64,000 nt of DNA from Dehalococcoidia bacterium (GCA_965237775.1 OZ250155.1:4703814-4767813); one strand, 5' to 3'. Positions 10,101 through 58,384 are shown, counted from the stretch's first letter. Notes: a model not told the origin generated them from the letters alone. Program-made: numbers and translations.

Positions 10101-12266
10101 CTGAATAAGGGTTTGACGGTGTTTCGCCCAGCCATGACCATTCGCCTGGAGCCAGAAAGGCGGGGATTCGCCCAGTCGGACTTCGCATCTCTCAAGCTGC
10201 ATTACGACGAACAGGTTCGACAGATCCACGTGATGGCGGAATACGTGCAGCGGGGCCTTGAATCCATGGCCAACGCGCTCCGCCTAGCCCTAGACTACTT
10301 TACGCTTCGGGAAGAGCAATTTCTGCAAAGATGGCTGCCAAACCGGGACAGCGAGATTTCGCGGCAGACCACGCCGGAATCGTGGCAGACGATCGTCGAG
10401 AGCCTGAACAACCCCGTCCAGCGCCGCATCGTGGTAGACGACCGGGAGCAGACCAACGTCCTTGTGCTCGCTGGCCCCGGCTCTGGCAAAACCAGAGTGC
10501 TGGTGCACCGGATCGCCTATCTGATACGGGTGAAGCGCGAGGACCCTCGCGGAATTCTGGCTCTCGCCTACAACCGCCACTCGGCGGCGGAGATCCGCCG
10601 CCGTCTTGCGGACCTCATCGGCGACGACGCCCGTGGTGTGATGGTGCTCACTTGCCACGCCCTCGCCATGAGAATGGTTGGCGCGAGTTTCTCGGGCCGC
10701 GCGAACCGCTTGGACGAAGGTGAATTCCAGCAAGTGCTTCGACAGGCGGCTGACCTGCTGCGTGGGAAAGGACTGCCGCCCGATGAAGCGGACGAGTACC
10801 GGGCGCGTTTGCTGGCGGGTTTCCGCTGGATTTTGGTGGACGAGTACCAGGACATCGGTCCGGACCAATACGAGCTGATCTCCGGTCTGGCGGGCAGGAC
10901 TCTTTCCGAAGAAGACGACAAGCTCAGCCTCTTCGCGGTGGGAGACGACGATCAGAACATCTACGCTTTTAACGGCTCGTCGGTGGAGTTTATCCACCGG
11001 TTCGAGGCGGACTACGGGGCCAAACCTACCTTCCTCACCGACAACTACCGCTCCACGGGCCATATCATCGACGCCTCAAATGCGGTGATCGAGCCGGCGC
11101 GGCAACGGATGAAGGCTGGACACCCGATCAGCATCAACCGGGCGCGAGCTAGGGAATTACCCGGCGGTGTCTGGTCTCAAAGGGACCCCGTCTCGCGCGG
11201 TCAAGTACAGATATTGCCAGCCGGCGACACCCCTATCACTCAAGCTCAGATGGTCGTCGCCGAGCTGAAGCGGCTGTCCGGCCTCACTCCGGATTGGTCC
11301 TGGTCTACCTGCGCGGTGGTGGCGCGGGAATGGAGCTTCCTGGACCCGGTGCGCAGCCTCTGTGAGCTTGAGGGAATTCCGGTGCAGATGGCGAACGAAG
11401 AGTTCTCGGGCATCTGGCATTTGCGGGAGACCCGGGCGCTACTGAACTGGCTGCGCGGGCGAGACTCCAACTTGGTGAAGAGCGCGGACCTAGACGAATG
11501 GCTGACTGGGCAACCCTCAAATCCTTGGAACGAGCTGTTGGGAGAAGCCGTCGCGGAGTTCGAGTTGGAGACTAGCGACTTGGAAACGCCGGTGGACTAC
11601 TTTATCGAATGGTTAGCCGAGTGGGGACGGGAAGTACGCCGCCGCCAGCGCGGGTTGATGTTGCTGACCGCCCACCGGGCCAAAGGCTTGGAGTTCGACC
11701 ACGTGGTGGTGCTGGACGGAGGTTGGGACCGCCTTTCACGCGGCGAAGATGCGGACGCCCCGCGCCGCCTTTACTACGTGGCCATGACCCGCGCGCGGCA
11801 GACGCTCATCCTCGCTCGTTTTCCCGGACCGCATCGGCTTCAGGATGCCTTGGTGGACCGTCCCTCGGCGCTGCGCCGGGCGGACTCCGTCAAACTCCCA
11901 CCGGCGTCGCCTGGACTCGAACGCCGCTATCGGCGCCTCAGTCTACGCGACGTCTTTCTCAGCTTCGCTGGATACAGGCAGCCTGGCCATCCGGTGCATC
12001 GCGCCATTGCCGCCCTCTCACCCGGAGATCCGCTGCAATTGCGGGTTGGGTCGAGGCGCTGGGATCTTTTGGATAGCAACGGTACTGTCGTAGGACAACT
12101 TGCCAGTGGTTTCGAGCCGCCCACCGGCCTTCGCTGCTCCTTTGCCACGGTCATGGCCATCGCCACCTGGGATAGGGAGCGTTCGGAGCCGGAGTTTCAG
12201 GACGGCCTTCGGTGCGACACTTGGGAAGAGGTCGTTCCGGAGTTGGTCTTCGAGCCGGATTCGTGA
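7155..12266 (+). CDS. Exonuclease-like / RecQ helicase / UvrD-type helicase triple fusion (1703 aa)
   Basis: GTG start ~10 nt after GGAGGG. The N-terminus has DnaQ-like Exo I/II motifs (LSLDLEV, LGHNLIDFDLPQL). The RecQ core has ILPTGAGKSLCYQVPAL, VLDEAHCLSSWGHDFRPDY, LCLTATA, IVATNAFGMGIDKPDVRLVIH and QEAGRAGRD. The C-terminal UvrD/PcrA core has VLAGPGSGKTRVLVHRIAYL, ILVDEYQDIGPDQYELI, VGDDDQNIYAFNGS, TDNYRST, LLTAHRAKGLEFDHVVVLD and YVAMTRARQTLIL. Confidence 0.85.
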   Translation: MPDESSLLLARCLSLDLEVGVKDRRIHALAGVRADTGQSLTLSVAGGRLASALAKLDDLAEGADFVLGHNLIDFDLPQLQAVNPGLRLLRLPAVDTLRLNPLAFPRNPYHHLVKHYQDGQLKRGRINDPELDARLALEVFQDQQKALKTAPAGLLAAWHWLTAADDGEGFDRVFEYLRNSPRPSDAEGRDAIYRVLDGSSCQTHAREATADAARRGWGVAYALAWLSVSGGNSVMPPWVRHQFPEAGKLVRRLRDTACVDPGCGWCRQRHDARKELTRWFGFDDFRPEPMDEAGRPLQQSIVEAVMAGEHVLGILPTGAGKSLCYQVPALSRYDKTGALTVVVSPLVALMADQVEGLEARGIGSCVTINGFLSMPERADALDRVRLGDASILIVSPEQLRNVSLRRVLDQREIGAWVLDEAHCLSSWGHDFRPDYRYVGRFIREKAGEESAPPVLCLTATAKPDVKSDIVNYFEKELGVKLKVFDGGAQRTNLDFVVVQTTSGQKFAHVHQILTADLPTDGPGGAIVYCATRRQTEELAEFLQSAGLESAHFHAGLPPETKKNVQQSFIRGDLRAIVATNAFGMGIDKPDVRLVIHADIPGSLENYMQEAGRAGRDQQSARCVLLYTPDDVERQFGMSARSRLTRREIHGVLRALRNLDRKNRLNGEVVATAGEILGEDEDKVFERDSATDDTRVRTAVAWLEDAVLLTREENRVQVFPSSLRVGSIEEARAKLANARIADAYRRQLLAISASLIEADPDEGISTDELMTVSGLTPERVRGALHDLEGLGIASNDTALTAFVHAGVDRNSKKRFDEAAELEKGLIDLLREAAPDMGRGDTSMLHLRLATQQLKDEGHTYALPERLGRIVRSIAADGRGDGGSGGSLGIRGRDPETLQVTLQREWGALEKTAELRRAAASRLLDHLLACLPPGSRGTDLLAETTLGKLLAAIKADMVLTSEVREPAKLMDRALLWLHEQEVVRLNKGLTVFRPAMTIRLEPERRGFAQSDFASLKLHYDEQVRQIHVMAEYVQRGLESMANALRLALDYFTLREEQFLQRWLPNRDSEISRQTTPESWQTIVESLNNPVQRRIVVDDREQTNVLVLAGPGSGKTRVLVHRIAYLIRVKREDPRGILALAYNRHSAAEIRRRLADLIGDDARGVMVLTCHALAMRMVGASFSGRANRLDEGEFQQVLRQAADLLRGKGLPPDEADEYRARLLAGFRWILVDEYQDIGPDQYELISGLAGRTLSEEDDKLSLFAVGDDDQNIYAFNGSSVEFIHRFEADYGAKPTFLTDNYRSTGHIIDASNAVIEPARQRMKAGHPISINRARARELPGGVWSQRDPVSRGQVQILPAGDTPITQAQMVVAELKRLSGLTPDWSWSTCAVVAREWSFLDPVRSLCELEGIPVQMANEEFSGIWHLRETRALLNWLRGRDSNLVKSADLDEWLTGQPSNPWNELLGEAVAEFELETSDLETPVDYFIEWLAEWGREVRRRQRGLMLLTAHRAKGLEFDHVVVLDGGWDRLSRGEDADAPRRLYYVAMTRARQTLILARFPGPHRLQDALVDRPSALRRADSVKLPPASPGLERRYRRLSLRDVFLSFAGYRQPGHPVHRAIAALSPGDPLQLRVGSRRWDLLDSNGTVVGQLASGFEPPTGLRCSFATVMAIATWDRERSEPEFQDGLRCDTWEEVVPELVFEPDS

Positions 12267-14456: not shown

Positions 14457-14883
14457 AATTCCGAACATTCACCCCTAATGATCCTGAACCCATCTCTTTG
14501 TCCTACGTTGGGCTGGGTAATTTAGCCTTATCGGTGTGCGGAGTAACCCGCCTGTGAGAGGGGTCTCCGCGGCACGGCCGCGCCTGGTCTGCCTCAGGTT
14601 CGGTCCTTAAGCGTACTAAACCAAAGCCAAGGTGGGATGTGCATTTACAATACATCGGTGATTGGGCTGGGATTCTCGCAGAAATCCTTCGGCCTTTGAT
14701 TGCAGGACGGTGCGGCAGCGGTCCTTGACCTCGTCTTTCCGGATGGACAGCCCGCAGAGGAAATTCCCGACCCTCTCCTTTACCAGGGCCTTGGTTCCCA
14801 AGCACAGGTTTCCGGTGGCTTCCTCTCTCGCCCAGCCCCAGATGGCCTCATCGGCGCCTCCGTCCGGGCTGTAGCCCGGCAGA

Positions 14884-14906
14884 GCCTGCCCTCGTGAAAA
14901 CGGGGG
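14884..14906 (-). repeat. 23-nt micro-insert (CCCCCGTTTTCACGAGGGCAGGC), site 2 of the type-2 transposase
   Basis: Absent from the same position in copy B: LRLVNLPGYSPDFNADE there versus LRLMNPRFHEGRLC... here. Confidence 0.85.
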
Positions 14907-15106
14907 TTCATCAGCCGCAGCCCCAAGCCCGGCGTCCGCAGATACTCACGCACCGCCTCGCCGCGGTGCGCCGGCGCGTTGTCCCAAATCACGTTGAGCG
15001 GCCCGGAGTGCCTCTGCCGCAACCGCTCCAGGAAGGCAGCCGAGGTTCCGGAGTTGCTGTTCCCCTCCAGGTCCATCCACTCCACCTCACCGGTCTCCAG
15101 GCACAC

Positions 15107-15189
15107 TGCCGAGTAGTAGCTGGGCCGAGTAGTAGCTGGGCCGAGTAGTAGCTGGGCCGAGTAGTAGCTGGGCCGAGTAGTAGCTGGCC
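15107..15189 (-). repeat. 16-nt tandem repeat (TGGGCCGAGTAGTAGC; five copies of the core versus one in copy B)
   Basis: Read directly from the sequence: four full units at 15121-15184 plus a partial first and last unit. Copy B and copy C have a single CCAGCTACTACTCGG. Confidence 0.9.
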
Positions 15190-15225
15190 TTTTCGCCATA
15201 GCTCGGGCTGGTCGAGTCCACCAAA

Positions 15226-15248
15226 GCCTGCCCCCGTGAAAACGGGGG
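15226..15248 (-). repeat. 23-nt micro-insert (CCCCCGTTTTCACGGGGGCAGGC), site 1 of the type-2 transposase
   Basis: Perfect hairpin CCCCCG-TTTTCA-CGGGGG. Absent in copy B: GESALVDSSSPRYGEKASYYS there versus GEPAPRFHGGRLWW... here. Confidence 0.85.
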
Positions 15249-16208
15249 GCCGGCTCTCCCTTTAGCACCCATTTGCCTCTCAGTTCGGCATCGGCCCGGA
15301 AATGGGCCTCGTCGGCTATGAATATCTTCGCTCCCGTACGCCACGCCTCGTCCGACAGGGTGGCGTACTCCGCCACGAAGGCCTCCCGCTTCTGCTCATC
15401 TGCCTTGACCAGACGCTTCTTGGGACGCTTCAGGACAAACCCCAAGCGGTGCAGATAGTTCAGGCAAGTGCTGCGGCTCAGGCCAATGCCGAAACGCTTC
15501 GAGACAAACTGCCGCACCACTTTCCTCCTGAGCCTGCCGAAGGGTCCAGTTGGCCATTTCTATGCCCGACATCCCGGGCAACTCCCGCACTGCCCCCGTC
15601 AACTCCGCCTGTTGCGTCTCGCCAAGTGCGGGGGGAACCCCCGGTCTGCTCGAATATCAAGGCTGCAGGCCCTCCCTCGCCGAAGGCGGCGGCCCATCTG
15701 CCGATGGTGTGAGCATCCCGGCCCAGTGCCCGGGCGGTGCCCGAGGCGGTCAGGCCCCGGCACAGGAGCCACAGTGCGTGCCACCGTTCTCTCTCCCGGG
15801 GTGTCGGCGCTAGGTACATCCTGCTGCGCACACTAGCCAAGTCCAACTGCCACCCCTCCAAGTCCGGCCTTATCCCCCTCATACCCATCACCATCCCCAC
15901 TCAGTCTGCTCCCAGTCCCGACGCCATGCCTCCCTGATTCTAGCCGACGCAAATGCGGATTTCACCTTGGCTTTGGTTTAGTACTATAGCGCCATTATTT
16001 CCAAACCTAAATCCCGTCCTCTCTAGATTCTGACTGGCTTGAGCCAGCCCCCTTGGGCCGTCCGGTGACATGGGCAAGTTTCTATTGGAAGCCAGTTGGA
16101 TCGTCCGACGGACCGCTAGGTCCTCGCAAGCCTCCGCCCCCATATTGGCGTGGACCGCAGGTCTGAAGTGAGCGGTTGCCCATTAATTAGAGCAGCACTA
16201 TTGTCCTA

Positions 16209-17444
16209 AACCAAAGCTAAGGTGAAATGCGCAGAGTCATGGGGTAAATTTGTGGGGAGAACCGAGTTAACTGGTCTTTGAAGATGCGAGGGGTTGGTGA
16301 TGGGCGTGAGGGAGATGGAGCGGTTTCTGGAACAATGGCAGATGGATGCCAAGGGCTTGCGCCGCCGGATGATTCTGGCGCCAACGCCCAGGGAACGGGA
16401 GCGGTGGTACGCCATCTTGCTGCTGGCACAGGGCTGGACAGCATCAGGGACGGCGGAGGCGCTGGAACGGGACCCACACACCATAGGACGGTGGGCCGCC
16501 GCCTTCGGCGAGGGAGGGCCTGCAGCCTTGATATTCGAGCAGACCGGTGGTTCCCCCCCGCCCTTGGTGAGACGCAACAGGCGGAGTTGAAGGCAGCGGT
16601 GGAGGAGTTACCGGAGCAGGCGGGCATCGAACTGTCCAACTGGTATTGGAAGGTGGTGCGGCAGTTCGTTTCGGAGCGGTTTGACGTCAGTTTGAGCCGC
16701 AGCAGTTGCCTGAACTATCTGCACCGCTTGGGATTTGCCTTCAAGCGCCCCAAGAAGCATCTGCTCAAGGCGGATGAGGCCAAGCGGGAGGCTTTCGTAG
16801 CGCAGTACGCCGCCCTGTCGGAGGAGGCCATACGGTCCGGGGCCAAGATATTCTTCGCCGACGAGGCCCACTTCCGGGCGGACGCCGAACTGCGGGGCAA
16901 ATGGGTGCTCAGGGGAGAGTCGGCCTTGGTGGACTCCAGCAGCCCACGCTATGGGGAGAAGGCCAGCTACTACTCGGCGGTTTGCCTGGAGACCGGCGAG
17001 GTGGAATGGATGGAACTGGAGGGGAACAGCAACTCCGGAACCTCAGCCGTCTTCCTGGCACAACTGAGGGAGAGGCACTCTGGGCCGCTCAACGTGATCT
17101 GGGACAACGCGCCGGCACACCGTGGCGAGGCGGTGAGGGAGTATCTGCGGACGCCGGGGCTGGCGTTGAGGCTGGTGAATCTGCCGGGCTACAGTCCGGA
17201 CTTCAACGCCGATGAGGCCATCTGGGGCTGGGCCAGAGAGGAGGCGACGGGAAACCTGTGCTTGGGCAGCAAGGTCAAGGTGCAGGAGAGGGTCGATCAC
17301 TTCCTCGATGGGCTAGCCAAGCGGAAGGATGAGGTGAAGCGGCGCTGCCGCACCGTCCTGCAATCATGGGCCGAAAGTCTCCCGCGACACTCGCAGCCCG
17401 ATTCCGGGCTCACCCTAATTGCACATCCCACCTTGGCTTTAGTT
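16209..17444 (+). mobile_element. IS630 type 2, copy B, the only apparently intact copy
   Basis: Termini are AACCAAAGCTAAGGTGAAATG ... CATCCCACCTTGGCTTTAGTT with C-TA...TA-G flanks. It has no 23-nt inserts and no tandem expansion. Confidence 0.85.
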
Positions 17445-17447
17445 TAG
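16294..17447 (+). CDS. IS630 type-2 transposase (orfA plus orfB joined by a -1 shift in a C7 run)
   Basis: orfA reads ...RWAAAFGEGGPAALIFEQTGGSPP. The C7 run is at 16553-16559. The -1 frame continues ALGETQQAELKAAVEELPEQAGIELSNW... (track ORF 16278..17447). DDE residues lie in FADEAHF, IWDNAPAH and SPDFNADEAIW. Confidence 0.8.
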
Positions 17448-17540: not shown

Positions 17541-18628
17541 ATGACATAGGAGTTACGCAGTTGGATGGAGAGTGTACTTGGGATAAGCCAGGTAATCTCG
17601 TAGGGCCGAGCGGATGATGTTGGCTTTGGAGTCGTACCAGGAGACTCCGGCGCTCAAGCGGTGGGCTTCCAGCCGCAGGAAGGCTTGGAGGGACAGGCGG
17701 ATGTGATTCCGCTGTCCCTCTGCCGTACGCACTTGGCATTTCTCCACGCCACAACATTGTTTGAGACCCCGGTGGTACGTTTCGATTCCCCCGGCTTGGC
17801 GCGCCAGGCTTTCCCGTTGTTGCTCCGTCATTTCCAGGTCATTGGTGGCCCAGTGTTCCACGTCCCCGTCTTTGGAGACCGTCCGAAACACTCGGATAAA
17901 CCCATAGCCTCGCAGATGCACCTGCCGGCCTCCCTGGGGTATCGCCACGGTGGCCAAGGGCAAGTTCCCCGCTCCCTCTGGATTCACCCGCCGGTTGGAC
18001 CGCAATTGGCTCAGCCAGAACCATCCCTTATCCCTGATGGCTTTCAAATTCTCCAAGCTGGTATACCAACTGTCGAACAGCACCCACCGGGGCTGAAAGC
18101 CCCGCCCCTCCGCCACCTCCAGCATCCGCCGGAAGTGGTCGTTCTTGGTCAGACCGCTTAGGGGACGGTCATAGGCCCGGAAATCGCAGGGTATCAGCGC
18201 ATTGCCATCAGTCCACAACAAGGTCAGCAGGTTGATGCCCCATACCACTCGCTTGTGCTTGCCGCTCCAATGTCGGAACACCAGTTCCATCCGCTTGGCG
18301 TAGGGCTTGTCCAGGGTGGTGTCGTCCAGCACCAGCACCCCCTCCTCCCGTCGCACCAGTCCCTGGGTTTCCTGCCACAGCGCCTCCGTGTCGGGGGGCT
18401 GTCTCCGCAGCAGACGGGTGAATGCGTCATGGGCTGGAGCTTGCGGTGATTCCGGTTGACACCGCGCCGCTTCGCTGCAGGTAAATCTCCTCTGGGCTGC
18501 CACCAAGAACTGAATGTAGTCCACCGCATCACATTTGGCCGGGTTCATCTCCCCCACCTCCGCCTCACTCCTTCTATCTTATCCCATCCCCAGCCTTAGC
18601 TCTCTCAACTGCGTAACTCCTATGACAT
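17541..18628 (-). mobile_element. IS701/IS4-like insertion sequence with 23-bp terminal inverted repeats
   Basis: ATGACATAGGAGTTACGCAGTTG (17541-17563) matches the reverse complement of CAACTGCGTAACTCCTATGACAT (18606-18628) at 22 of 23 positions. Confidence 0.8.
17553..18557 (-). CDS. DDE transposase (IS701/IS4-like), 334 aa
   Basis: Track ORF with VLVLDDTTLDKPYAK, VLFDSWYTS and GGIETYHRGLKQCCGVEKCQ, which look like DDE-type motifs. Confidence 0.75.
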   Translation of the reverse strand: MGEMNPAKCDAVDYIQFLVAAQRRFTCSEAARCQPESPQAPAHDAFTRLLRRQPPDTEALWQETQGLVRREEGVLVLDDTTLDKPYAKRMELVFRHWSGKHKRVVWGINLLTLLWTDGNALIPCDFRAYDRPLSGLTKNDHFRRMLEVAEGRGFQPRWVLFDSWYTSLENLKAIRDKGWFWLSQLRSNRRVNPEGAGNLPLATVAIPQGGRQVHLRGYGFIRVFRTVSKDGDVEHWATNDLEMTEQQRESLARQAGGIETYHRGLKQCCGVEKCQVRTAEGQRNHIRLSLQAFLRLEAHRLSAGVSWYDSKANIIRSALRDYLAYPKYTLHPTA

Positions 18629-18912
18629 TAGGTTCGCCGATAATATATGGCAGTTAACGAAACGGATTGAAGGGTGGATAGTCAATAACTACCCGCAAGT
18701 ATATGAAAATGCCGGACAACTGGGCTATCATTTCAAAGAACCCATCTCATTCGTGCTTTCAGCAACCCAACCGGGTGTCTATTGGGACATTTCGGAACCT
18801 AACAGTCATTTTCGGTTCCGCATATGGCAAGATGATGTATCCAAGGCAGGCTCAGACAACGCGGCATCCTCAGCCTGATGATATCTATTGAATCGCTTTC
18901 GGACTAGAGAAC

Positions 18913-21900
18913 ATGGCTAGGATAGGCAAGTCGAAGAAGAGGAAGAAATCTGGAATGCGCAAGAGGCCTCACGCTCTCCTGGGTACCGCTTCATCGGGCA
19001 GCGGCACATATTCCCAATTCGGAACCGAGGCGCTTGGAGAGTGGGAGGCCTGGTACTCATCCGAGTGGCAAGGATCGCGCTCCGGCTCGCGCGCGAGTCG
19101 GGGTTTCCATTTCCAAGATGTCGTAGGAGCTTGGTTCGCTTCCCGGCTAGCGTCCGGAGAACTTGAGGTGGACCGCATCGTACCTGAGGGATTCGACGAT
19201 CTACAGCTCGACGCAGATGGGCCGGTTCAAGTCGAGGTCAAGTCGCGCCAAGGTCGCCTGGGTCCGTTTCCGGTCGGGGTAGCTGCCAGGCATATCGTAG
19301 ACGCTTGGCTGCGACACGTGGATCGATTCGGAACAGATAGACGCCTCATTGTCGTACTAGAACGGGGTCTAGAGGGTTGGGAGAATGGCTTTGAACGGCC
19401 GGTGACCGAAATCCCGCTCTCGCGCCTCATCGAAGGCGTGAGTGGCCTTGAGGCCACGCTCGCTGCTGATGTTGAATCGCGTGGGTGGCCTCCAACGGTC
19501 GCAAGGGACATGCGGCTTGGCACCACGCTTCTAACCTATTCCTGGGACGGGCTGATTGCCGATACAGAGCGCCACCTCGGATTCGTAGTGAATCTACCAA
19601 CTGCGGCGCTTGGGGTTGTTGCGCGGGCACTCCAAGTAATGGTTGCAAATGCAGTTGATACGAACGCCGAAGCTAAGTTTGAAGACAGAAGCAGCCTCGA
19701 CCGCACTAGTGTGGTCGAGGATATCAACAGGATTGCGGAACTCATCGACCTAGAGTCGATGGAGCATGCTTTGACTCAAGGCATCTGTAGCCCCATTGAC
19801 AAGGAACCGCTCGAAATCGGTGATTACTACTACGAGGGTGTGTCGACACAGCCAGGCCATGTTGGGGCTGGACTTGTTGTTCCGCGTACAGATCTTGTTT
19901 CCCAGACGATAGCTAGCTTGGATATGAGCCAAGCAGTGTTGCTAGTCGGCCCATCGGGTGTTGGGAAGTCCGCCGTGTTGTGGACCTTACCATTCGCTCT
20001 TCCAGGCGTCCTGTGGTTTCGTGTGCATCGAATGTCCGATGACGATGTTCCGCAAGTAGTGCGATTGCTGCGGTCATACCGTGTTTCCCCCGAGGCTCCT
20101 GTGGGTCTTCTGGTCGACGCAGTTGGCAACGGTGACCTGGCAGGGTGGTCGCGCCTACGAAAAGCGGTAGCTTCGATCCCAGGTGCCCTACTTATAGGTA
20201 CTGCCCGCAGCGAAGACCTACCTACTCTTGGAGACCTTGCAGATTGCAGGACAGTAGGCGTTTCACTGGACGAAGATGCCGCAGAGGCGATTCATGCCGG
20301 CCTTACCCGGCGCTGTGCGACGAGTGTCCCTCACTGGCGAGAGGCCTTTGAACAGTCTCACGGGCTAACACTTGAATTCACTCATTTGCTAACTCAAGGG
20401 ACACGGCTCTATGACATCCTTGCTGACCAAGTTGCCAAGCGTGTTATTGAGAACCGTGCCCTTGAACTCCAGATCCTCGCCCTTGTGACAGCTGCTGACC
20501 GTTGGTCCGTATCCATACCGGCCGAAGCGTTGACTGCTGCCTTGAACTCTGGACCCACGGAACTGCGAGCCGCCCTCGCACGGTTAGTGGAGGAGCATCT
20601 TGTTGTTGAACGCGACGGATTATTTGCTGGTATTCACCAGATTCGATCGCGGAACATCGTAGATGTGATCCACCGTGTCCCCCCGCCCCCGCTGGAGGCA
20701 ACCGTCGTATCAGTCCTCGAAATGCTGCATGGCCCTGCGCTGTCACGTTTCCTTTACGAGGTTCTGAGAGAGGCGCCTGGCCTTGAGAAACCAGTGCTCC
20801 AGGCTTTAGGTGGGCTGGTGCGAGACGACGTTGAGCGTCTCTTGGCATGCCTCCGGGGGCTTGAGTTGGTTGACTTCTACAGACAGGCAATGGCTTGGGC
20901 GCAGATAGCGGAGCGACATGGTGTCCCACTTGCTCACCGACCCTTCGTCCTGCAATTCGCGGTCACCGGTATTGAGATTCCCGATTTCTTTGCTGTCCAG
21001 ATTCGAAGTGCCATAGCTGAGATGGCGTCCATTCCGGAGCAAAGTGAGACAAGAAATGGGCTACTCTGGGCGGTAGGTACCGACAAAATCGCCTCAGAGC
21101 TTGCTGAGGCGACAAGCGCCGATGCGTGTCTGCGACTGCTCGGACCATTTGGCCGGACATCTATCGACTGGCGGCTACTACTGGCTGCTCTGCAACCTGG
21201 TTCCCCCTTCGGTAACTTCCTGAGGAGCTGCTCTCTTTCAGCCTTTGGCGACTGTGTTTCTTCAGCACGAGGCGTGTCGGTTGACCTTGCTAGAGCATTT
21301 GTGGATGCCGTCGGCGGGACTGAGGTCTTGCTTGAGCGTTTCCGCAACAGTGACCCGTGGCTTCAGGAACTGAAGACTGTTTCCAAGGACGGTGAACTCA
21401 TTGGCGTTGCGAGATTCTTGTACGTGTCGGAACCTGATCAAGGCGATGCACGCGAGTATGCCGTTGAGACTGGGAGACAACTTCTTCGGACTCTGCCCGA
21501 TATAAGCAGCGTAGACGTCAAGGCGGTGATGGCTGGTGGGCGCTCATTGGAAGTTGACGGTTTCGAGTATGGGTCTTCAGGGCTCCTGCGTCAGTATGAT
21601 CATCACCCCGCCACTGTCGGATGGAATCAGGATCGGATACGCCTTGCACAGACCCTCTTCGGCGCAAGCGAAACAGAACGACTATCGGAAGCCGCTGGAT
21701 TGCTCGCCGAGGCCGCAGAGCTCGTCCGCGATACCGGCAATGCGTTTGTACAATCGCGCGGGCGACTGGCCGAAGCCTTGGACAGACGACGCATAGCGTT
21801 AACCACTAGAGGTCAATCGCTTCCTCCCCGGCTTGGAATTAACCCCCTCTCGGAAGAGGGCGGAATAGAGTTGAATGACCCTCTCTCGGGAATAATTACT

Positions 21901-22944
21901 GACATCTGCGGGAACATGTTGCCACGGCTTACCAACCCCGACGGGTACGCAGCACTTTCGGCATTCGTCAATCAGACAGTGCTCGGAAAGGACATACCGG
22001 CGGTGAAAGAACAGCCTTGGAGGCTCATTGGTTTCGAGGGTACTCCACCTGTCCTAGACGAACTCTCGACAGGGCTCTCCGACATTGCCGCTGTACTGAC
22101 CGAACTACGTGCAGATGCGCGCTCTGCGAGCAAGATAGTGAGTGCTGGCCGACGCGGCACCGTACGGGGTGCCCTCGACCGTGCGGCCAAACTGTCGCGG
22201 CAACTCACTCACAGGAGGATTCAGAAACAACGAGCAGGGATGAGAGCGGCCCTTCAATCGACAGGATGGGCGGTCGATGTGTGCTGGTCTGATGGCGATC
22301 CAGCGAAAGGCGAGTTCTCCAACTGTGCCGTGATGGTCACTCTCGATTCTCTGGCTGACTGGCCGGCCGCTTATGAGGGCCTCATTCCGAAACTGCAAGA
22401 GCTTAGCACCCTCGGGGAGTCACCCTTGCTAGTGCCGGTGGTGAACGACCGGAGTGTTCCGCGCTTTACGGTGCGAGCTGGTTCGAAAGTCTGGGCAGTG
22501 GGCAACTTGGGTGAGTTCGAGCACTTGCTACCAGAGCAACTGGACCAACGTTTGACCAGTCCATTTATTGCTGCCCGCTCGGCGCTGGAGGTCTACTCGG
22601 CTCTCTCGGTCCTCCGCCGCGATGGAGGACTCCATCATAGCGTGCGGCAACTGCTTGAGCGTACACTATTGGACTACGACCAGGCGGTCACCGCGATTCG
22701 GGCCGTCGGTGAAGACGTTGTGGTCGGCGCGCTCACCGAGTGGCTGGGAGAGATCCATGGGCGGGTGGAAAAGGAATGGAACGGCGAAATCGCAGCTGGC
22801 GCTTTCGCCACAAGTATGGTGGAAGGAGTGCTGCAACCAGGATCCCCGGAGGCCATTAGACAAGGCGTTGCTCTACTCTTGTCGCTCCAATGGGACTCAG
22901 ACCCTGCTCGCGCCATTGCTTGGTTAGAGTCGTTGGAGGAGTAG
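18913..22944 (+). CDS. Nuclease / P-loop NTPase / long helical C-terminal region (1343 aa), STAND/Avs-like plan
   Basis: The N-terminus resembles Cap4/DUF4297-type PD-(D/E)xK nucleases (GFHFQDVVGAWFASRL ... PEGFDDLQLDADGPVQVEVKSRQ). It has Walker A LLVGPSGVGKSAVLW, Walker B-like VGLLVDAVGNGD, and then LLIGTARSED. About 800 further residues are helical-looking with no motif I recognise. The gene is AT-richer than the window average. Confidence 0.7.
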   Translation: MARIGKSKKRKKSGMRKRPHALLGTASSGSGTYSQFGTEALGEWEAWYSSEWQGSRSGSRASRGFHFQDVVGAWFASRLASGELEVDRIVPEGFDDLQLDADGPVQVEVKSRQGRLGPFPVGVAARHIVDAWLRHVDRFGTDRRLIVVLERGLEGWENGFERPVTEIPLSRLIEGVSGLEATLAADVESRGWPPTVARDMRLGTTLLTYSWDGLIADTERHLGFVVNLPTAALGVVARALQVMVANAVDTNAEAKFEDRSSLDRTSVVEDINRIAELIDLESMEHALTQGICSPIDKEPLEIGDYYYEGVSTQPGHVGAGLVVPRTDLVSQTIASLDMSQAVLLVGPSGVGKSAVLWTLPFALPGVLWFRVHRMSDDDVPQVVRLLRSYRVSPEAPVGLLVDAVGNGDLAGWSRLRKAVASIPGALLIGTARSEDLPTLGDLADCRTVGVSLDEDAAEAIHAGLTRRCATSVPHWREAFEQSHGLTLEFTHLLTQGTRLYDILADQVAKRVIENRALELQILALVTAADRWSVSIPAEALTAALNSGPTELRAALARLVEEHLVVERDGLFAGIHQIRSRNIVDVIHRVPPPPLEATVVSVLEMLHGPALSRFLYEVLREAPGLEKPVLQALGGLVRDDVERLLACLRGLELVDFYRQAMAWAQIAERHGVPLAHRPFVLQFAVTGIEIPDFFAVQIRSAIAEMASIPEQSETRNGLLWAVGTDKIASELAEATSADACLRLLGPFGRTSIDWRLLLAALQPGSPFGNFLRSCSLSAFGDCVSSARGVSVDLARAFVDAVGGTEVLLERFRNSDPWLQELKTVSKDGELIGVARFLYVSEPDQGDAREYAVETGRQLLRTLPDISSVDVKAVMAGGRSLEVDGFEYGSSGLLRQYDHHPATVGWNQDRIRLAQTLFGASETERLSEAAGLLAEAAELVRDTGNAFVQSRGRLAEALDRRRIALTTRGQSLPPRLGINPLSEEGGIELNDPLSGIITDICGNMLPRLTNPDGYAALSAFVNQTVLGKDIPAVKEQPWRLIGFEGTPPVLDELSTGLSDIAAVLTELRADARSASKIVSAGRRGTVRGALDRAAKLSRQLTHRRIQKQRAGMRAALQSTGWAVDVCWSDGDPAKGEFSNCAVMVTLDSLADWPAAYEGLIPKLQELSTLGESPLLVPVVNDRSVPRFTVRAGSKVWAVGNLGEFEHLLPEQLDQRLTSPFIAARSALEVYSALSVLRRDGGLHHSVRQLLERTLLDYDQAVTAIRAVGEDVVVGALTEWLGEIHGRVEKEWNGEIAAGAFATSMVEGVLQPGSPEAIRQGVALLLSLQWDSDPARAIAWLESLEE

Positions 22945-23151
22945 CTGGAGCCGATTGACTACAGCCACTTCGCCCGAAGCCTGACTTGGCGGACGCAGCT
23001 TGGTATCCCGCATCTCACCGGGACAGCCATGTAGGGTCCAGAGGAGAGAAGGTTACGCGAAAAGGCTTGAAGCTGTAGGCGGTCGGCTGACCTGTTCTTC
23101 GATGCAGTGATGATGGGAGTTCTTTAGCCTTATTCGACTCCAGTTCCATCC

Positions 23152-23205
23152 AAGCCGACCGCCCAAGAGTACCTAAGGTTTTTGTGTCGATTGGAAGACA
23201 GAGAA
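23152..23205 (+). repeat. About 50-nt element R1 upstream of the SIR2 gene
   Basis: CCGACCGCCCAAGAGTACCTAAGGTTTTTGTGTCGATTGGAAGACAGAGAA is an imperfect direct repeat of 24577-24632. The first 26 nt match at 21 positions. An inverted 11-mer GGCGGTCGGCT lies at 23078-23088. Confidence 0.7.
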
Positions 23206-23303
23206 CTCCGTCTGCGTCTAGCCAACTCGCCGGAATTGCTGGTTTTCTCGACGGCTGGGTAAACTTGTTACGCAATTTCGGACAAACGGGAGACTACATC
23301 GAT

Positions 23304-24317
23304 ATGAGCGATACGTTCCTGTTAGGAGCCGGTTTCTCCAAAGCAATCTGCAAGACGATGCCGACGATGAAAGAAATCTACGAGCTCCTAGAACCGTTAA
23401 TCGGTAGGGCGGACGGTTTCAGCAGAGAGGCGTACGACTACGCATCTGGCAACGTTGAGACACTGCTCTCGTACTACGCAATACCCAATCCACATGACGA
23501 CACCGTTGAGCTGTTACGTAAACAGCGAGTAACGACTCTGTTAGAAATCGGGATAGGAGCGCTTCTCCAAGAGCGTGAACGCGAGGGAGCAGAACAGGGA
23601 CTAAACCCCAACGGCTCAAAGCTCGTCTCGAAATGGCACGATCAACGAAGTCACATACTGACAACGAACTACGATACACTAGTGGAAAGAATCGCTGCGG
23701 AAAAGGAATACACAACAGCCAACGGAAGCAAGGATAAGCTATATTACACGGATCTGTATCCGATACCTGTCAGCTCGGCCCTATCACGAGATGGAGGAAT
23801 GATATTTGGCTCCAATTATCCAGATACCCTCACTCTATATAAGCTTCATGGTTCAACGACTTGGTTCAAGTCAACAAGCGAAACAAACTTCGACCCAATA
23901 TACGGTCTTTCACACGAGCAGTTCGACAATCCCCGGCACCAAAAGTTCATTGCCGACAAGCGTCGTTTTATTGTGCCTCCAGTATATGACAAGTCTTCAC
24001 TGCTGAACCATGAAAGCATTCGTAACTTATGGTGGCAAGCCAGGAACAACGCCCTAAGACAAGCGGATAATCTATATGTAATTGGCTACTCACTCCCAGA
24101 AACTGACGCAGCCATGCACATCCTATTGTGGGAGGGAACGCGAACCGAGACGCCTGCTACGAACGGTAGGAAATCACTTTATGTAGTCGATGTGGATAAA
24201 ACGGTCAGCCAACGCTACACAGAGAAATTAGGTTCCTATTACGACGTCAAGGATTATTACGCAGGCAATGCAGATGCGTTTGACATTTTTGTCGAGGAGT
24301 ATGTCAAAGATACATAA
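23304..24317 (+). CDS. SIR2-family (SIR2_2-like) protein with no extra domain, 337 aa
   Basis: ATG 23304 lies ~10 nt after GGGAGA. Motifs are FLLGAGFSKA, ILTTNYDTLVE and LYKLHGS. This is the visibly most AT-rich gene in the window. The upstream part of the track ORF (from 23184) was not counted. Confidence 0.75.
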   Translation: MSDTFLLGAGFSKAICKTMPTMKEIYELLEPLIGRADGFSREAYDYASGNVETLLSYYAIPNPHDDTVELLRKQRVTTLLEIGIGALLQEREREGAEQGLNPNGSKLVSKWHDQRSHILTTNYDTLVERIAAEKEYTTANGSKDKLYYTDLYPIPVSSALSRDGGMIFGSNYPDTLTLYKLHGSTTWFKSTSETNFDPIYGLSHEQFDNPRHQKFIADKRRFIVPPVYDKSSLLNHESIRNLWWQARNNALRQADNLYVIGYSLPETDAAMHILLWEGTRTETPATNGRKSLYVVDVDKTVSQRYTEKLGSYYDVKDYYAGNADAFDIFVEEYVKDT

Positions 24318-24425
24318 GGTGCGTTTGGATAGTCCAATGATGGGGTTTTCGGTGGACCTCTCCGCTTGCTGGGGATCGAACTACACGCCATTCCCTGAAC
24401 TACCTTCCTAATCAACTGCCTCCTA

Positions 24426-24572
24426 AACCGATACCAAGGTGGGATGTGCATTTCGCGGGTCTTGACGATGACCGAAGGGACGCCACGGCACCTCATATCA
24501 CCTTTAGGCCCCAACTGGGTGGGTACCGACAGTGCGGTCTAGCGGTATGTACATCTCACCTTGGCTTTAGTT
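24426..24572. mobile_element. MITE derived from IS630 type 2 (~150 bp)
   Basis: C-TA-AACCGATACCAAGGTGGGATGTGCAT ... ATGTACATCTCACCTTGGCTTTAGTT-TA-G. The termini match IS630 type 2, there is no ORF, and the flanks are CTAG/TA. Confidence 0.8.
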
Positions 24573-24576
24573 TAGT

Positions 24577-24632
24577 CCGACCGCCCACGAGTATCCGAGT
24601 TTTCCGTTGCTATTGTGTCTGACAGATGAAGG
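24577..24632 (+). repeat. About 50-nt element R2 downstream of the SIR2 gene
   Basis: CCGACCGCCCACGAGTATCCGAGTTTTCCGTTGCTATTGTGTCTGACAGATGAA is the second copy of R1. It lies directly after the MITE and before the IS110 copy. Confidence 0.7.
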
Positions 24633-24849
24633 TTCTTGATTTTGTCCGCTACCGCCCAAGGATGACGGGACGGCATGGGTGGCGGCAACGCCGTCCAAGC
24701 TCTAACTCTCAAGACAGAGAGACTTCCCCAAGCCAGACACTGCCGCATCCACCGGCCCTCTGCCGACTGTAGAGGTCCGATTCGGCCTCTTCCTTCAGAA
24801 ATAAACTATCCGGTGGCTACTAAGCTGGACTCCCGACTAACACGGTTTT

Positions 24850-26272
24850 TCAAGCGACCGCCGCCGGGTTGAGGGGTACGCCCGGAATATGGCCCGGCGC
24901 ATCGGACATAGGCACCAGTTGATAGCCCAGTTGATGCGCCCGCCGTTTCGCAGCGCGCAGCGCCCGTTGCTGATACTGACTCTCATAGTATTCGGCGCCG
25001 GCATCTACGTAGTCCTGCCCGAAGCGCAGCATGGAGTAGATGAGTCTCGCCAGCTTGTGAGCCGTGGCGGTGATGGCCTTGGGTGCTCCCAAGTGTGCTT
25101 TCTTCCGGCGCAGGAAGGCCCCCGGGGCGCTGTTGGAGCGGTGCAGTCCATGGGCAGCCAGGCGCAATGCCGCCGCGGTCCGGTTGGCGCTGGGCTTGGT
25201 CTTTGAGCTCATGACCTTACCACCGGTGATGCGGTTGTCGGGGCTCAGCCCCAGCCAGGACGCGAAGTGCTTGGCGCTGGGCCATTTCGTCATGTCGGCG
25301 CCAATCTCGCTGATCACCTTCAAGGCCGTGAAGCCGTCTATCCCATCGATCCGGGTCAGGTCCACCCCGGTCATCCGATACAGGTGTGTCCTGATATCGA
25401 AGCTGGGCGCGTTGCCCTGGCTGCGCCGCCGGCCATTCCCGGCAGGAGTCCCGCCGTCGGTGACGTCCTCAAACCGTTCCAACTGGGCTTCAATCTTCCC
25501 GTCGCACTCATCAATCTTGGCGTGATACATCCGGTATAGTTCCAGAGCTTGGGTCAGCTCGAAGATGTGCTCTTCGAGCCAGTGCCCCTGTAACGACTTG
25601 GCGATGGTCTCCTCGTCCGCCCTGATCCGGTGGTCGCGGAGTTGCGCCAGCTGCCACGGGTCCCGTTCTCCGCTCACGATGGCTTCAATAATCGCCATGC
25701 CAGTCTGGCCAGTGATGTTGCTGATGACGTGCTGGAGCTTCACGTTCATCTGGGTCAGCGCCTTCTGCATGTGCTGAATGTGATGGGACGCGTACTCAAC
25801 CAGCATGGCCCGCTGCCGCAGGTAGCTCCGCAAGCGTCGTATCTCCGGCTCGGGCCGGAAGGCTCCCGACAACAGGCCGTAGGTGTGCAACTGTTGCAGC
25901 CACTGGCAGTCCTGCACGTCGGTCTTGCGCCCAGGCACGTTCTTGATGCGCCTGGGGTCTACCAGCATCACCTCGAACCCCCGCTCTTCCAGCACCCCGA
26001 ACAGCGGTATCCAATACACCCCAGTCGACTCCATGACCACGGTCCCCACTCCGCACTCCGACAGCCAGGCGATACAAGTCTGCCGTGAAGGCTTCAAACT
26101 CGCGCACCGGCTGGTCGCGACGGTCTTGGGGCACCGCGACGAAATGGCTGCTGGCCCCCACGTCAATACCAGCCGCATCCAGGTTTACCTGAGACAGCTG
26201 CGCGGGCAGACGCTCCCGCCTCCGGGTCGTCTGGCGCGCCGGTTTTGCGCTCCTCTGGCGAGTCGTCATCAT
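24850..26272 (-). pseudogene. IS110-family transposase with a 1-nt frameshift
   Basis: The N-terminal part MMTTRQ...AAGIDVGASSHFVAV...FTADLYRLA (ORF 25796..26272) is out of frame with ...AWLSECGVGTVVMESTGVYWIPLF...HKLARLIYSMLRFGQDYV (ORF 24850..26178). The shift is near 26075. Confidence 0.8.
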
Positions 26273-26540
26273 CTCCTCCTATCACGTCAGTGTCGGCGCG
26301 TCGCCGGAGGAAGTCCCTGACAGTTGCCATTCTCCCGAACGGGATCGTCCTGGTGGGGACGTCACCAATGATGCCGCCGTAAGACTCCCAGACCATGCTT
26401 TGTACCGGGCAATATGCGCCAAAGTCTAGTCGGTCTTGGTCCAGACGATACGCCTCAACAGGAGATTACACCTCCGGCGCGGTCTCGTCTGTTAGTCTCC
26501 TTTGCCCAGTCAGGAACGCGGGCCTAACGGTGCTTTGTAC
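26273..26540 (-). ncRNA. Candidate bridge-RNA region of IS110 copy 1
   Basis: About 260 nt of non-coding DNA lie between the transposase start and the element end. This is where IS110-group elements are known to encode their bridge RNA. The terminal 10-mer GTACAAAGCA recurs 125 nt inside (reverse complement of 26406-26415). No structure was computed. Confidence 0.35.
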
Positions 26541-37900: not shown

Positions 37901-38250
37901 CAGGCAACTCCGGTTCTCCCGGTCTACTGTGCCATCTTCAAGGGTGACGCCGCCCCCACCGGTCAGATTGTGGAAGACCGTCTCCCGACACGTCCGGGGA
38001 TAGCGGCAACTCGCCATTTGGCGGACTGCCGGCGAAGCAGGCAACCGCCAGAGTGAGCCCATGCCATTGATACCGGCGGCCGCCGCGTCAGGGCGGACCG
38101 CACCGGAACGCCGGACCGGCGGGACCATGGCGCGTGACTCCTGAACTGCTCCAGAACTCCCACTACAGCACACGGCGCGTCCCTTCGCAGCGGAGAAATA
38201 TGCCTGCGCCCTGGAGCGCAACACCCACACCAAGACATGGAGACCAATTC

Positions 38251-57833: not shown

Positions 57834-57881
57834 ATATCGATCTGATCCGAGTTCGTGTTCGATGGAGTGTTTAGGTGTAGT

Positions 57882-58270: not shown

Positions 58271-58384
58271 TCCCCTCCGTTCTCTTTTGTCGGCAGGTGG
58301 AACGCCATTCTGTTTTCTACCGCCGTTATCCTGAGATCATGGGACCTGTCGGCCTGGCAAATTCTGACTCCCCGGCCGTCTCCA

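What the first reader, a model, noticed from the sequence alone, without database searches (positions are those of the whole stretch)
18913..24317. Nuclease-STAND giant protein followed by a bare SIR2 gene on an AT-richer islet: candidate undescribed defence module
Two same-strand genes sit between an IS701-like element (17541-18628) and a MITE/IS110 cluster (24426-26540). They are visibly AT-richer than the rest of the window. Gene 1 (1343 aa) has an N-terminus laid out like Cap4/DUF4297-type PD-(D/E)xK nucleases (GFHFQDVVGAWF...PEGFDDLQLDADGPVQVEVKSRQ). A P-loop NTPase follows (GPSGVGKS; VGLLVDAVGNGD), then ~800 helical residues with no motif I recognise. That is the effector-NTPase-sensor plan of STAND/Avs immune proteins. 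Gene 2 (337 aa) has the SIR2_2 NADase signature (GAGFSKA, TTNYDTLVE, KLHGS) but none of the partner domains seen in named SIR2 systems: no SLOG, HerA, pAgo, TIR or fused STAND. I cannot assign this pairing to a named system. It may be one system with two effectors (DNA cleavage plus NAD depletion), or two adjacent single-gene systems.
Basis: partly seen in the sequence, partly recalled or inferred. Interest (0 to 1): 0.8.

Follow-up and report, generated by a model that had tools for sequence, protein, structure and literature searches.

The report
Two unrelated defence genes, side by side
The two genes are real and look like anti-phage genes: an Avs-like nuclease-STAND sensor protein and a bare SIR2 enzyme. 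They are independent mobile cassettes that ended up adjacent only in this genome, not one new two-gene system.

Summary
Both ORFs exist as described: gene 1 at 18913-22944 (1343 aa) and SIR2 at 23304-24317 (337 aa).

- **Gene 1, N-terminal half:** the model (pLDDT 85) best matches Avs3, then Cap4, LmuA nuclease, Avs5, SAMD9, CED-4 and NLRs. The nuclease, Walker A/B, sensor-1 Arg and winged-helix His residues are essentially invariant in 89 relatives.
- **Gene 1, C-terminal 744 aa:** it folds confidently (pLDDT 91) but matches nothing in PDB or BFVD. It occurs only in this fixed architecture.
- **SIR2:** it passes Pfam SIR2_2, and the catalytic Asn and His are invariant.

The pairing is incidental.
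- None of 42 loci with a gene-1 relative (27-98% identity) holds a SIR2.
- None of the SIR2 contexts (54-98%) holds a gene-1 relative, and neither family has any conserved neighbour.
- Nucleotide homology to other genomes falls into two separate blocks (about 18738-22944 and 23147-24647). A unique 195-bp junction lies between them, and GC differs (57.5% vs 47.4%).
- Both families sit in defence-island or IS-rich contexts.

Verdict: two adjacent single-gene defence candidates. One is a new, uncharacterised family of the known Avs kind, and the other is an unnamed bare SIR2. Interest is moderate to low.

The parts
17553..18557 (-). IS701-type (DDE_5/DDE_Tnp_1) transposase, on the left flank of the islet
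   Evidence: Pfam DDE_5 at 8.8e-13 and DDE_Tnp_1 at 8.8e-12
18738..18912 (+). Upstream region that travels with gene 1. It is the 5' part of the gene-1 cassette and is presumed to hold the promoter and RBS.
   Evidence: Nucleotide homology to L059 (97.6%) starts at 18738, to L051/52 (91%) at 18723 and to L053 (94%) at 18888. One weak sigma-70-like site lies at 18703-18731.
18913..22944 (+). Gene 1: a 1343-aa Avs-like nuclease-STAND protein. The true start may be M15, since P0001 is 1329 aa.
   Evidence: ORF. There are 275 full-length unnamed homologues. No significant Pfam, PADLOC or NCBIfam hit.
19099..19542 (+). Cap4-like PD-(D/E)xK nuclease domain (aa ~63-210). Conserved residues are E92, D96, [E/Q]108-x-K110 and E150.
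   Evidence: Foldseek on the N-terminal model gives Avs3 8dgc E=5e-11, Cap4 6vm5/6wam ~4e-5 to 4e-4, and LmuA nuclease 9hr5 4e-4. E92, D96, K110 and E150 are conserved in 88-89 of 89 relatives; position 108 is E in 55 and Q in 33. Pfam Cap4_nuclease hits are sub-threshold and seen in 3 of 31 members.
19888..20670 (+). STAND NTPase module (aa ~326-586). NBD: Walker A GPSGVGKS 346-353, Walker B D402, sensor-1 R432. It is followed by a helical domain and a winged helix (H562, H575).
   Evidence: Foldseek matches Avs3, SAMD9, EfAvs5, MalT, CED-4, RPP1, Dark and NLRP7. Motifs are invariant in 89 of 89 relatives. Sub-threshold hits across 31 members: AAA_16 in 30, nSTAND1 in 16, nSTAND5 in 11, GntR-type wHTH in 11.
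20680..22941 (+). C-terminal ~750-aa putative sensor domain. It is mostly alpha-helical, with beta-containing inserts at aa ~817-872 and ~1120-1195, and its fold is unmatched.
   Evidence: AF2 model has pLDDT 90.7. Best PDB E is 0.13 and best BFVD E is 0.008 at TM 0.09. phmmer against 1.84e9 representatives finds 283 hits. All 75 full-length hits carry the same nuclease and NTPase.
22952..23146 (.). Unique junction between the two cassettes. It has no homology to the loci of either gene's relatives.
   Evidence: blastn breakpoints. No terminator-like or promoter-like site was found here.
23147..24647 (+). SIR2 cassette: a block shared at 93-98% nucleotide identity with contigs where SIR2 follows a SEC-C gene instead of gene 1
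   Evidence: L040, L041 and L060 match 23147-24432 at 97.9% and 24428-24647 at 93%.
23304..24317 (+). Gene 2: a 337-aa bare SIR2_2 protein. It has the GAGFS NAD loop, catalytic N122 (23667-23669) and H182 (23847-23849).
   Evidence: Pfam SIR2_2 scores 29 bits against a cut-off of 24.5. PADLOC SIR2 PDLC04087 scores 1e-13. N122 and H182 are invariant in 26 relatives. The closest PDB entry is the SIR2 of SIR2-HerA, 8j4u, at E=2e-7.
24423..24575 (.). MITE with IS630-type terminal inverted repeats
   Evidence: Inverted and direct repeat families D2, D3, I10 and I11 are shared with the IS630 copies at 14611-15984 and 16201-17447.
24850..26178 (-). IS110-family transposase, on the right flank
   Evidence: Pfam DEDD_Tnp_IS110 at 5e-16 and Transposase_20 at 5.5e-11

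Best explanation
The region holds two independent single-gene cassettes. IS-driven rearrangement of a variable, defence-island-like region placed them next to each other.

**Gene 1** is a member of the antiviral STAND (Avs/bacterial NLR-like) kind.
- Shown: the fold, the conserved motifs, the fixed architecture, and the defence-island context.
- Inferred by analogy with Avs3 and Avs7: the ~750-aa C-terminal domain binds a phage-derived ligand, probably a protein. Binding releases autoinhibition and promotes ADP-to-ATP exchange in the NTPase. The protein then oligomerises, which assembles the N-terminal Cap4-like PD-(D/E)xK domains into an active DNA nuclease. DNA cleavage aborts the infection.

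**Gene 2** is a free-standing SIR2_2 enzyme with an intact NAD-binding loop and catalytic Asn/His.
- Inferred: it is an NAD+-consuming effector used in defence. Its trigger or partner is not encoded beside it and is unknown.

The two genes do not form a conserved system.
For: **Independence of the two genes**
- tblastn and profile-HMM searches find no SIR2 in 42 loci encoding gene-1 relatives. Of these, 38 have at least 2 kb of downstream sequence.
- No gene-1 module is found in 9 SIR2 loci.
- Neither family has any conserved neighbour.
- Relatives at 89-98% identity sit in other contexts.
- In the >=90% clusters of the two genes, the only contig length in common is the window's own 5.12-Mb contig.
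- Homology falls into separate blocks, 18738-22944 and 23147-24647, with a unique 195-bp junction. GC is 57.5% vs 47.4%.

**Gene 1 is Avs-like**
- Foldseek's top hit is Avs3 at 5e-11. Cap4, LmuA, Avs5, SAMD9, CED-4 and NLRs follow.
- Nuclease and NTPase motifs are invariant.
- All 75 full-length bearers of the sensor have the same architecture.
- Neighbours of relatives include type I, IIG, III and ISP R-M systems, MADS, PbeA, PtuA, LmuB, MkoA, Mrr, GmrSD, DruA, patatin, integrases and a relaxase.
- The mechanism template comes from Lee et al. 2026, PMC13581612.

**SIR2**
- It scores above the Pfam cut-off, and N122 and H182 are invariant.
- The listed family members are bare, at about 240-370 aa.
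- Its neighbours in other genomes include PDC-M01A/B and a TIR (PDC-S35) protein, and one copy sits in a phage-like block.
Against: - No experimental data exist for either family.
- All sequence-profile hits for gene 1 are sub-threshold. PADLOC, including any Avs models it holds, finds nothing, so the Avs assignment rests on predicted structure.
- The sensor is not TPR-like, unlike most characterised Avs sensors.
- Walker B has a single acidic residue, D402 followed by A/G/S, so NTP hydrolysis may be weak.
- The two genes are co-directional and 359 bp apart, with no predicted terminator between them. Read-through co-transcription in this genome cannot be excluded.
- A bare SIR2 with no regulator is hard to reconcile with a toxic NADase, and its defence role is inferred from context in only a handful of loci.
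Confidence: 0.72

Rival explanations
1. The two genes form one two-gene defence system with two effectors. The STAND protein senses infection and activates both its own nuclease and the downstream SIR2 NADase.
For: The genes are on the same strand, 359 bp apart, with no predicted terminator between them. Both are lower in GC than the window. SIR2-STAND fusions (Avs5) exist as precedent.
Against: - Adjacency is never seen elsewhere: 0 of 42 gene-1 loci and 0 of 9 SIR2 loci, including relatives at 89-98% identity.
- The two genes lie on separate homology blocks with a unique junction, and their GC differs by 10 points.
- Gene 1's architecture is complete and fixed on its own.
Confidence: 0.04
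2. The SIR2 is a promiscuous effector cassette that inserts behind varied same-strand upstream 'sensor' genes and works with whichever one it lands behind. In this genome the partner would be the STAND protein.
For: In all 7 distinct SIR2 contexts the upstream gene is co-directional, and the gap is 30-93 bp in four of them. The upstream proteins are all different and mostly uncharacterised. A bare SIR2 needs some regulator.
Against: - Seven of seven co-directional is only weakly unusual: about 0.08 if 70% of neighbouring genes are co-directional (my estimate, not computed).
- The upstream proteins share no domain and range from 121 to 1343 aa.
- The cassette carries its own 157-bp upstream region.
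- No mechanism is known by which unrelated proteins could all gate one enzyme.
Confidence: 0.1
3. One or both genes are not defence genes. Gene 1 could be a STAND-type regulator or a selfish mobile-element function, and SIR2 a regulatory or metabolic sirtuin-like enzyme or an ADP-ribosyltransferase carried by mobile elements.
For: - STAND clades switch often between defence and non-defence roles (PMC13581612).
- Gene 1 has no HMM-level match to any defence model.
- SIR2 contexts are few, and some contain no recognisable defence genes.
Against: - A conserved nuclease active site fused to a STAND is an immune-effector signature.
- The neighbourhoods of gene-1 relatives are dense in defence systems.
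- SIR2_2-type proteins with the N/H dyad are NADases in every characterised defence system (established knowledge: ThsA, DSR1/2, SIR2-HerA, SPARSA, Avs5).
- The taxonomic distribution is patchy, spanning Chloroflexota, Actinomycetota, Acidobacteriota and one alphaproteobacterium.
Confidence: 0.12

Closest known systems
Avs3 and Avs7 (antiviral STAND proteins with an N-terminal Cap4-like nuclease; Gao et al. 2022; Lee et al. 2026, PMC13581612)
   Same: Both share the order Cap4-like PD-(D/E)xK nuclease, then STAND NTPase (NBD-HD-WHD), then a large C-terminal domain. Both are single-gene units found in defence islands. Avs3 is the best structural match for residues 45-640 (E=5e-11).
   Different: PADLOC returns no family at all for gene 1, so none of its Avs models matches. 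The C-terminal domain is not TPR-like and matches no solved structure, Avs3 and Avs5 entries included. Walker B has a single acidic residue. The family lives in Chloroflexota and Actinomycetota rather than Enterobacteria. Its trigger is unknown.
Cap4 (CBASS effector) and Lamassu LmuA Cap4-type nucleases; DUF4297-HerA
   Same: The N-terminal nuclease fold and the E/D...(E/Q)xK motif layout are shared. Structural hits are 6vm5, 6wam, 9hr5 and 9c1m.
   Different: There is no SAVED domain, CD-NTase, LmuB/SMC or HerA partner. Activation would come through a fused STAND rather than a cyclic nucleotide or an SMC complex.
SIR2 subunit of SIR2-HerA (Nezha) systems
   Same: This is the closest solved relative of gene 2 by profile search (8j4u, E=2e-7). 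It has the same SIR2_2 core with catalytic Asn and His, and a similar size (337 vs 381-415 aa).
   Different: The match covers only residues ~64-193. No HerA is present in the ORFs scanned across the window or in the called genes of the 8 other SIR2-family loci examined.
Avs5 (SIR2-STAND), ThsA (SIR2-SLOG), DSR1/DSR2, SPARSA SIR2-APAZ
   Same: All use a SIR2_2-type NADase as the effector of abortive infection.
   Different: In each of these the SIR2 is fused to, or obligatorily paired with, a sensor or regulator. Here it is a stand-alone 337-aa protein, and the listed members of its family are equally bare at about 240-370 aa.

Membership tests
Avs / antiviral STAND (bacterial NLR-like) | N-terminal effector domain of a defence type (here a Cap4-like PD-(D/E)xK nuclease) | tested here: met
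   Foldseek matches Avs3, Cap4 and LmuA. E92, D96, K110 and E150 are conserved in 88-89 of 89 relatives, and position 108 is E or Q. The Pfam Cap4_nuclease match is only sub-threshold.
Avs / antiviral STAND (bacterial NLR-like) | Central STAND NTPase: P-loop NBD with Walker A/B and sensor-1 Arg, followed by a helical domain and a winged helix with a conserved His | tested here: met
   The model shows NBD-HD-WHD topology. Structural hits include Avs3, Avs5, SAMD9, MalT, CED-4, RPP1, Dark and NLRP7. GPSGxGKS, D402, R432, H562 and H575 are invariant.
Avs / antiviral STAND (bacterial NLR-like) | Large C-terminal sensor domain (>=400 aa), usually TPR-like repeats | tested here: inconclusive
   A ~750-aa, confidently folded C-terminal domain is present. 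It is not TPR-like and matches nothing in PDB or BFVD. Non-TPR sensors are known in the superfamily (PMC13581612).
Avs / antiviral STAND (bacterial NLR-like) | Association with defence islands or mobile elements | tested here: met
   Neighbours of relatives include R-M systems, MADS, PbeA, PtuA, LmuB, MkoA, Mrr, GmrSD, DruA and patatin. No formal enrichment statistic was computed.
Avs families held in PADLOC-DB v2.0.0 | Sequence match to a PADLOC Avs family model | tested here: not met
   PADLOC v2.0.0 returns 0 families at E<=1, and NCBIfam returns none. Which Avs types that release covers is my recollection, not something the output shows.
Avs / antiviral STAND (bacterial NLR-like) | Oligomerisation and nuclease activation triggered by a phage protein; protection against phage | not testable with these tools
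   This needs plaque assays, co-expression toxicity screens and biochemistry.
Defence-associated SIR2 (SIR2_2) NADases | SIR2_2 domain above the curated threshold, with an NAD-binding Gly-rich loop and the catalytic Asn/His dyad | tested here: met
   Pfam SIR2_2 scores 29 bits against a cut-off of 24.5. GAGFS, N122 and H182 are invariant in 26 relatives.
Defence-associated SIR2 (SIR2_2) NADases | A fused or adjacent sensor or regulator (SLOG, HerA, pAgo/APAZ, STAND, DSR C-terminal domain) | tested here: not met
   Listed family members are about 240-370 aa. No neighbour is conserved across 7 contexts.
SIR2-HerA (Nezha) | Adjacent HerA ATPase gene | tested here: not met
   No HerA/DUF87 hit appears in the window ORFs scanned or in the called genes of the SIR2 loci.
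Proposed two-gene STAND + SIR2 system | Adjacency of the two gene families conserved across genomes | tested here: not met
   Adjacency is seen in 0 of 42 gene-1 loci and 0 of 9 SIR2 loci. The two genes lie on separate homology blocks.
Cap4 (CBASS effector) | Nuclease fused to a SAVED/CARF sensor, with a CD-NTase operon | tested here: not met
   The nuclease is followed by a STAND NTPase, not a SAVED domain. No CD-NTase was seen among the neighbours.

The most novel reading that the evidence does not exclude
The 337-aa SIR2 family may be a free-standing effector cassette that is functional on its own or that couples to whatever co-directional gene it lands behind. In this genome that gene is the Avs-like protein, which would make an ad hoc nuclease-plus-NADase pair. 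Separately, gene 1's C-terminal domain may be a structurally new class of Avs sensor that recognises a trigger specific to phages of Chloroflexota and Actinomycetota.
Probability: 0.12. Interest if true: 0.65.

Novelty: new member of a known kind. Interest (0 to 1): 0.33.

Why it matters
The practical value is mainly negative. It stops a chance juxtaposition in an IS-scrambled defence island from being reported as a new two-effector system.

Two modest leads remain.
- **An uncharacterised Avs-like family.** It comprises about 280 clusters at 50% identity, mostly in Chloroflexota and Actinomycetota, which are under-studied for phage defence. Its 750-aa sensor is confidently predicted yet matches no known structure. 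Identifying its trigger would add to the map of phage components that STAND receptors monitor.
- **A uniformly bare SIR2 family.** How a potentially lethal NADase is held in check without a fused or adjacent regulator is an open mechanistic question.

Tried and rejected
- **Sequence profiles for gene 1** (Pfam, PADLOC, NCBIfam, PHROGs, and an A1 profile against PDB sequences) gave only P-loop-level or sub-threshold hits. The domain assignment therefore had to come from structure prediction.
- **Metagenome and viral scans for SIR2 relatives** returned only distant relatives (7 loci at <=30% identity) or none. SIR2 contexts came from exact look-ups instead.
- **Look-up of P0001**, the window's own gene-1 product, found no record. 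The source organism was not identified beyond a 5.12-Mb NCBI/ENA contig.
- **Search for a conserved neighbour of gene 1.** The top 'cluster' turned out to be N-terminal extensions of gene 1 itself.
- **A HerA partner for the SIR2** was considered and rejected, since none is present.
- **The SEC-C protein upstream of the 97%-identical SIR2** (L040, L041, L060) was considered as a partner. It was rejected because the window's homology begins after that gene, and other SIR2 contexts lack it.
- **Literature searches** for a named system, by key terms and by the accession numbers of relatives, found nothing specific. The supplementary tables of Lee et al. 2026, which could assign a clade or sensor cluster, are not held.
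Full report
**1. Observation**

The two same-strand ORFs are present as described. Gene 1 is 18913-22944 (1343 aa). Gene 2 is an ORF at 23184-24317 whose biologically supported start is the ATG at 23304 (337 aa). All 25 aligned relatives begin at that position with MSD.FLLGAGFSKA.

- An IS701-type DDE_5 transposase lies at 17553-18557 (-).
- An IS110 transposase lies at 24850-26178 (-).
- A ~155-bp MITE at 24423-24575 has terminal inverted repeats that match the two IS630 copies at 14.6-17.4 kb.

The islet has lower GC than the window (61.4%). The two genes also differ from each other: gene 1 is 57.5% and SIR2 is 47.4%.

**2. What gene 1 is**

Sequence profiles are almost silent. Pfam gives only P-loop-level hits (AAA_16, E=0.01). 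PADLOC, NCBIfam and PHROGs give nothing. A family profile against PDB sequences finds only guanylate-kinase P-loops.

Scanning 31 relatives individually gives sub-threshold but consistent hints:

| Pfam family | Members hit (of 31) |
|---|---|
| AAA_16 | 30 |
| nSTAND1 | 16 |
| nSTAND5 | 11 |
| GntR-type winged helix (~aa 538-569) | 11 |
| Cap4_nuclease | 3 |

I therefore predicted structures from an 89-sequence alignment.

*N-terminal half.* Residues 45-640 fold with mean pLDDT 84.6. Foldseek against PDB gives these matches:
- Avs3 (8dgc), E=5e-11, aligned over essentially the whole query;
- SAMD9, EfAvs5, MalT, CED-4, RPP1, Dark and NLRP7;
- Cap4 (6vm5, 6wam), the Lamassu LmuA nuclease (9hr5) and a HerA-DUF4297 assembly (9c1m).

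The corresponding motifs are essentially invariant in 89 relatives:
- E92, D96, [E/Q]108-x-K110 and E150 in the nuclease;
- GPSGxGKS (346-353), Walker B D402 and sensor-1 R432 (the GTAR motif, analogous to the STAND 'TTR');
- H562 and H575 in the winged helix.

*C-terminal half.* Residues 600-1343 fold with pLDDT 90.7. The domain is mostly helical, with two beta-containing inserts. It has no significant match in PDB (best E=0.13) or in BFVD (best E=0.008 at TM 0.09).

An exhaustive phmmer search of 1.84 billion representatives finds this domain in only 283 clusters. All 75 full-length hits carry the same nuclease and NTPase modules, and the shorter hits are truncations. The architecture is fixed, and the sensor is specific to this family.

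**3. What gene 2 is**

- It passes the Pfam SIR2_2 threshold (29 vs 24.5 bits) and hits PADLOC SIR2 models at up to 1e-13.
- The Gly-rich NAD loop, N122 (TTNYD) and H182 (KLHGS) are invariant.
- The 120 best relatives listed, of 422 found, are about 240-370 aa long, so the family is bare.
- The closest solved relative is the SIR2 of SIR2-HerA (8j4u, E=2e-7), matching the central region only.
- No HerA is present among the ORFs scanned in the window.

**4. Are the two genes a system?**

This was the decisive test, and the answer is no.

- *Gene-1 loci.* A scan of 185,579 species genomes returned 39 loci with gene-1 relatives. They come from Dehalococcoidia, Acidimicrobiia, Streptomyces, Kocuria, Cryobacterium, Kribbella, Acidobacteriota and one alphaproteobacterium. 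Exact look-ups added contexts for relatives at 89%, 92% and about 98% identity.
- *No SIR2 beside gene-1 relatives.* In these 42 loci, 38 with at least 2 kb downstream, neither tblastn nor a SIR2 family HMM finds any SIR2. All-against-all clustering of flanking ORFs finds no conserved neighbour of any kind.
- *No gene-1 relative beside SIR2 relatives.* SIR2 relatives at 54-98% identity sit in six further contexts that share no neighbour and hold no gene-1 module.
- *Cluster membership.* Among members of the two >=90% clusters, the only contig length in common is the window's own 5.12-Mb contig.
- *Nucleotide breakpoints.* Homology to gene-1 loci runs from 18738 (or 18723, or 18888) to 22944-22951. 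It stops 0-7 bp past the stop codon in three unrelated contexts. Homology to SIR2 loci starts at 23147, which is 157 bp before the ATG, and runs to 24647. The segment 22952-23146 is unique.
- *What replaces gene 1.* In the contigs with the 97%-identical SIR2, the upstream gene is a 720-aa SEC-C protein, not gene 1.

**5. Context**

Neighbours of gene-1 relatives include type I, IIG, III and ISP R-M systems, MADS, PbeA, Septu PtuA, Lamassu LmuB, Mokosh MkoA, Mrr, GmrSD, DruA, patatin and caspase. Integrases and a relaxase are also present.

SIR2 relatives lie near PDC-M01A/B, near a TIR (PDC-S35) protein, or inside a phage-like block.

The window itself is a mobile, defence-rich region. It holds IS630, IS701-type and IS110 elements, further DDE_5 fragments, an integrase, DUF3987, a DpdF/GajB-like double helicase, NADAR, an SNF2 helicase and a TIR protein.

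**6. Mechanism**

*Gene 1.* The mechanism is inferred by analogy with Avs3 and Avs7 (PMC13581612).
1. The C-terminal domain binds a phage component.
2. Binding relieves autoinhibition and drives nucleotide exchange.
3. The STAND oligomerises.
4. The Cap4-like domains assemble into an active dsDNA nuclease, and the infection aborts.

What is shown is the fold, the motifs, the architecture and the context. What is inferred is the ligand, oligomerisation and DNA cleavage.

*SIR2.* NAD+ consumption is inferred from the intact dyad. How the enzyme is held inactive without a regulator is unexplained.

**7. Comparison and novelty**

Gene 1 meets the structural definition of an antiviral STAND. It is not detected by any PADLOC model, and its sensor is not TPR-like. 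A 2026 survey already counts 589 STAND clades, 198 of them defence-associated, and 684 sensor clusters. I therefore file gene 1 as a new, uncharacterised member of a known kind, possibly already listed in tables I could not read.

The SIR2 is an unnamed bare member of the SIR2_2 defence-effector kind. The proposed two-effector module is not a real system.

**8. Residual oddities**

- In all seven SIR2 contexts the upstream gene is co-directional, and the gap is 30-93 bp in four of them, yet the upstream proteins are unrelated.
- The 3' boundary of the gene-1 cassette is unusually sharp.

Both are noted as leads, not findings.

Noticed in passing
window 7155-12266 (+): A 1703-aa protein fuses a DEAD/RecQ-like helicase (PADLOC DpdF 1e-117, PsyrT 1e-92) to a UvrD-type helicase (GajB-like 1e-52). 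It may be another defence gene, lying ~7 kb upstream of the islet.
   Followed up: partly
window 38134-39264 (+): A 376-aa protein has a NADAR domain (2.4e-15) and a Lar-type zinc ribbon. NADAR domains reverse ADP-ribosylation, which is of interest in a region that also carries a SIR2.
   Followed up: no
window 62781-63554 (+): A 257-aa protein has a CAP12/Pycsar-type TIR domain (6e-14). This is a further defence-type effector in the window.
   Followed up: no
window 47389-51430: A DUF3987 protein (47389-48984, -) and a tyrosine integrase with an Arm-binding domain (50060-51430, +) suggest an integrative element. ARAGORN finds no tRNA gene in the window.
   Followed up: partly
window 14611-17447: Two IS630-family (DDE_3/HTH_33) copies sit in inverted orientation. 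The left copy is disrupted and holds a perfect 16-bp tandem repeat (GCCGAGTAGTAGCTGG, 5 units, 15108-15187). A MITE with the same terminal repeats lies at 24423-24575.
   Followed up: partly
window 18738-22951 vs L051, L053, L059: Nucleotide homology of the gene-1 cassette ends 0-7 bp after the stop codon in three unrelated genomic contexts. This is a very sharp 3' boundary with no obvious repeat or att site, and how the gene moves is unclear.
   Followed up: partly
L040, L041, L060 (about 1-6700 in L040): The 97%-identical SIR2 follows a conserved four-gene cluster of 576, 666-691, 157-175 and 720 aa, the last with a C-terminal SEC-C motif. None of the four has a known function. The cluster is absent from the window.
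   Followed up: partly
L054 2134-9402: A 73%-identical SIR2 is embedded between three paralogous repeat-protein genes of 1221, 342 and 290 aa (44-61% identical repeats), as if it had inserted into a gene array.
   Followed up: no
L043 (whole locus): A 56%-identical SIR2 lies inside a block of many short co-directional genes (DUF6197 in several copies, ORF11_beta, PIN_3, guanylate kinase). The block looks like a prophage or phage-like element.
   Followed up: no
window 54001-59000: AT skew is strongly negative (-0.19 to -0.39) and GC is lower around an SNF2-family helicase (55749-57833, -). The composition is distinct from the rest of the window.
   Followed up: no
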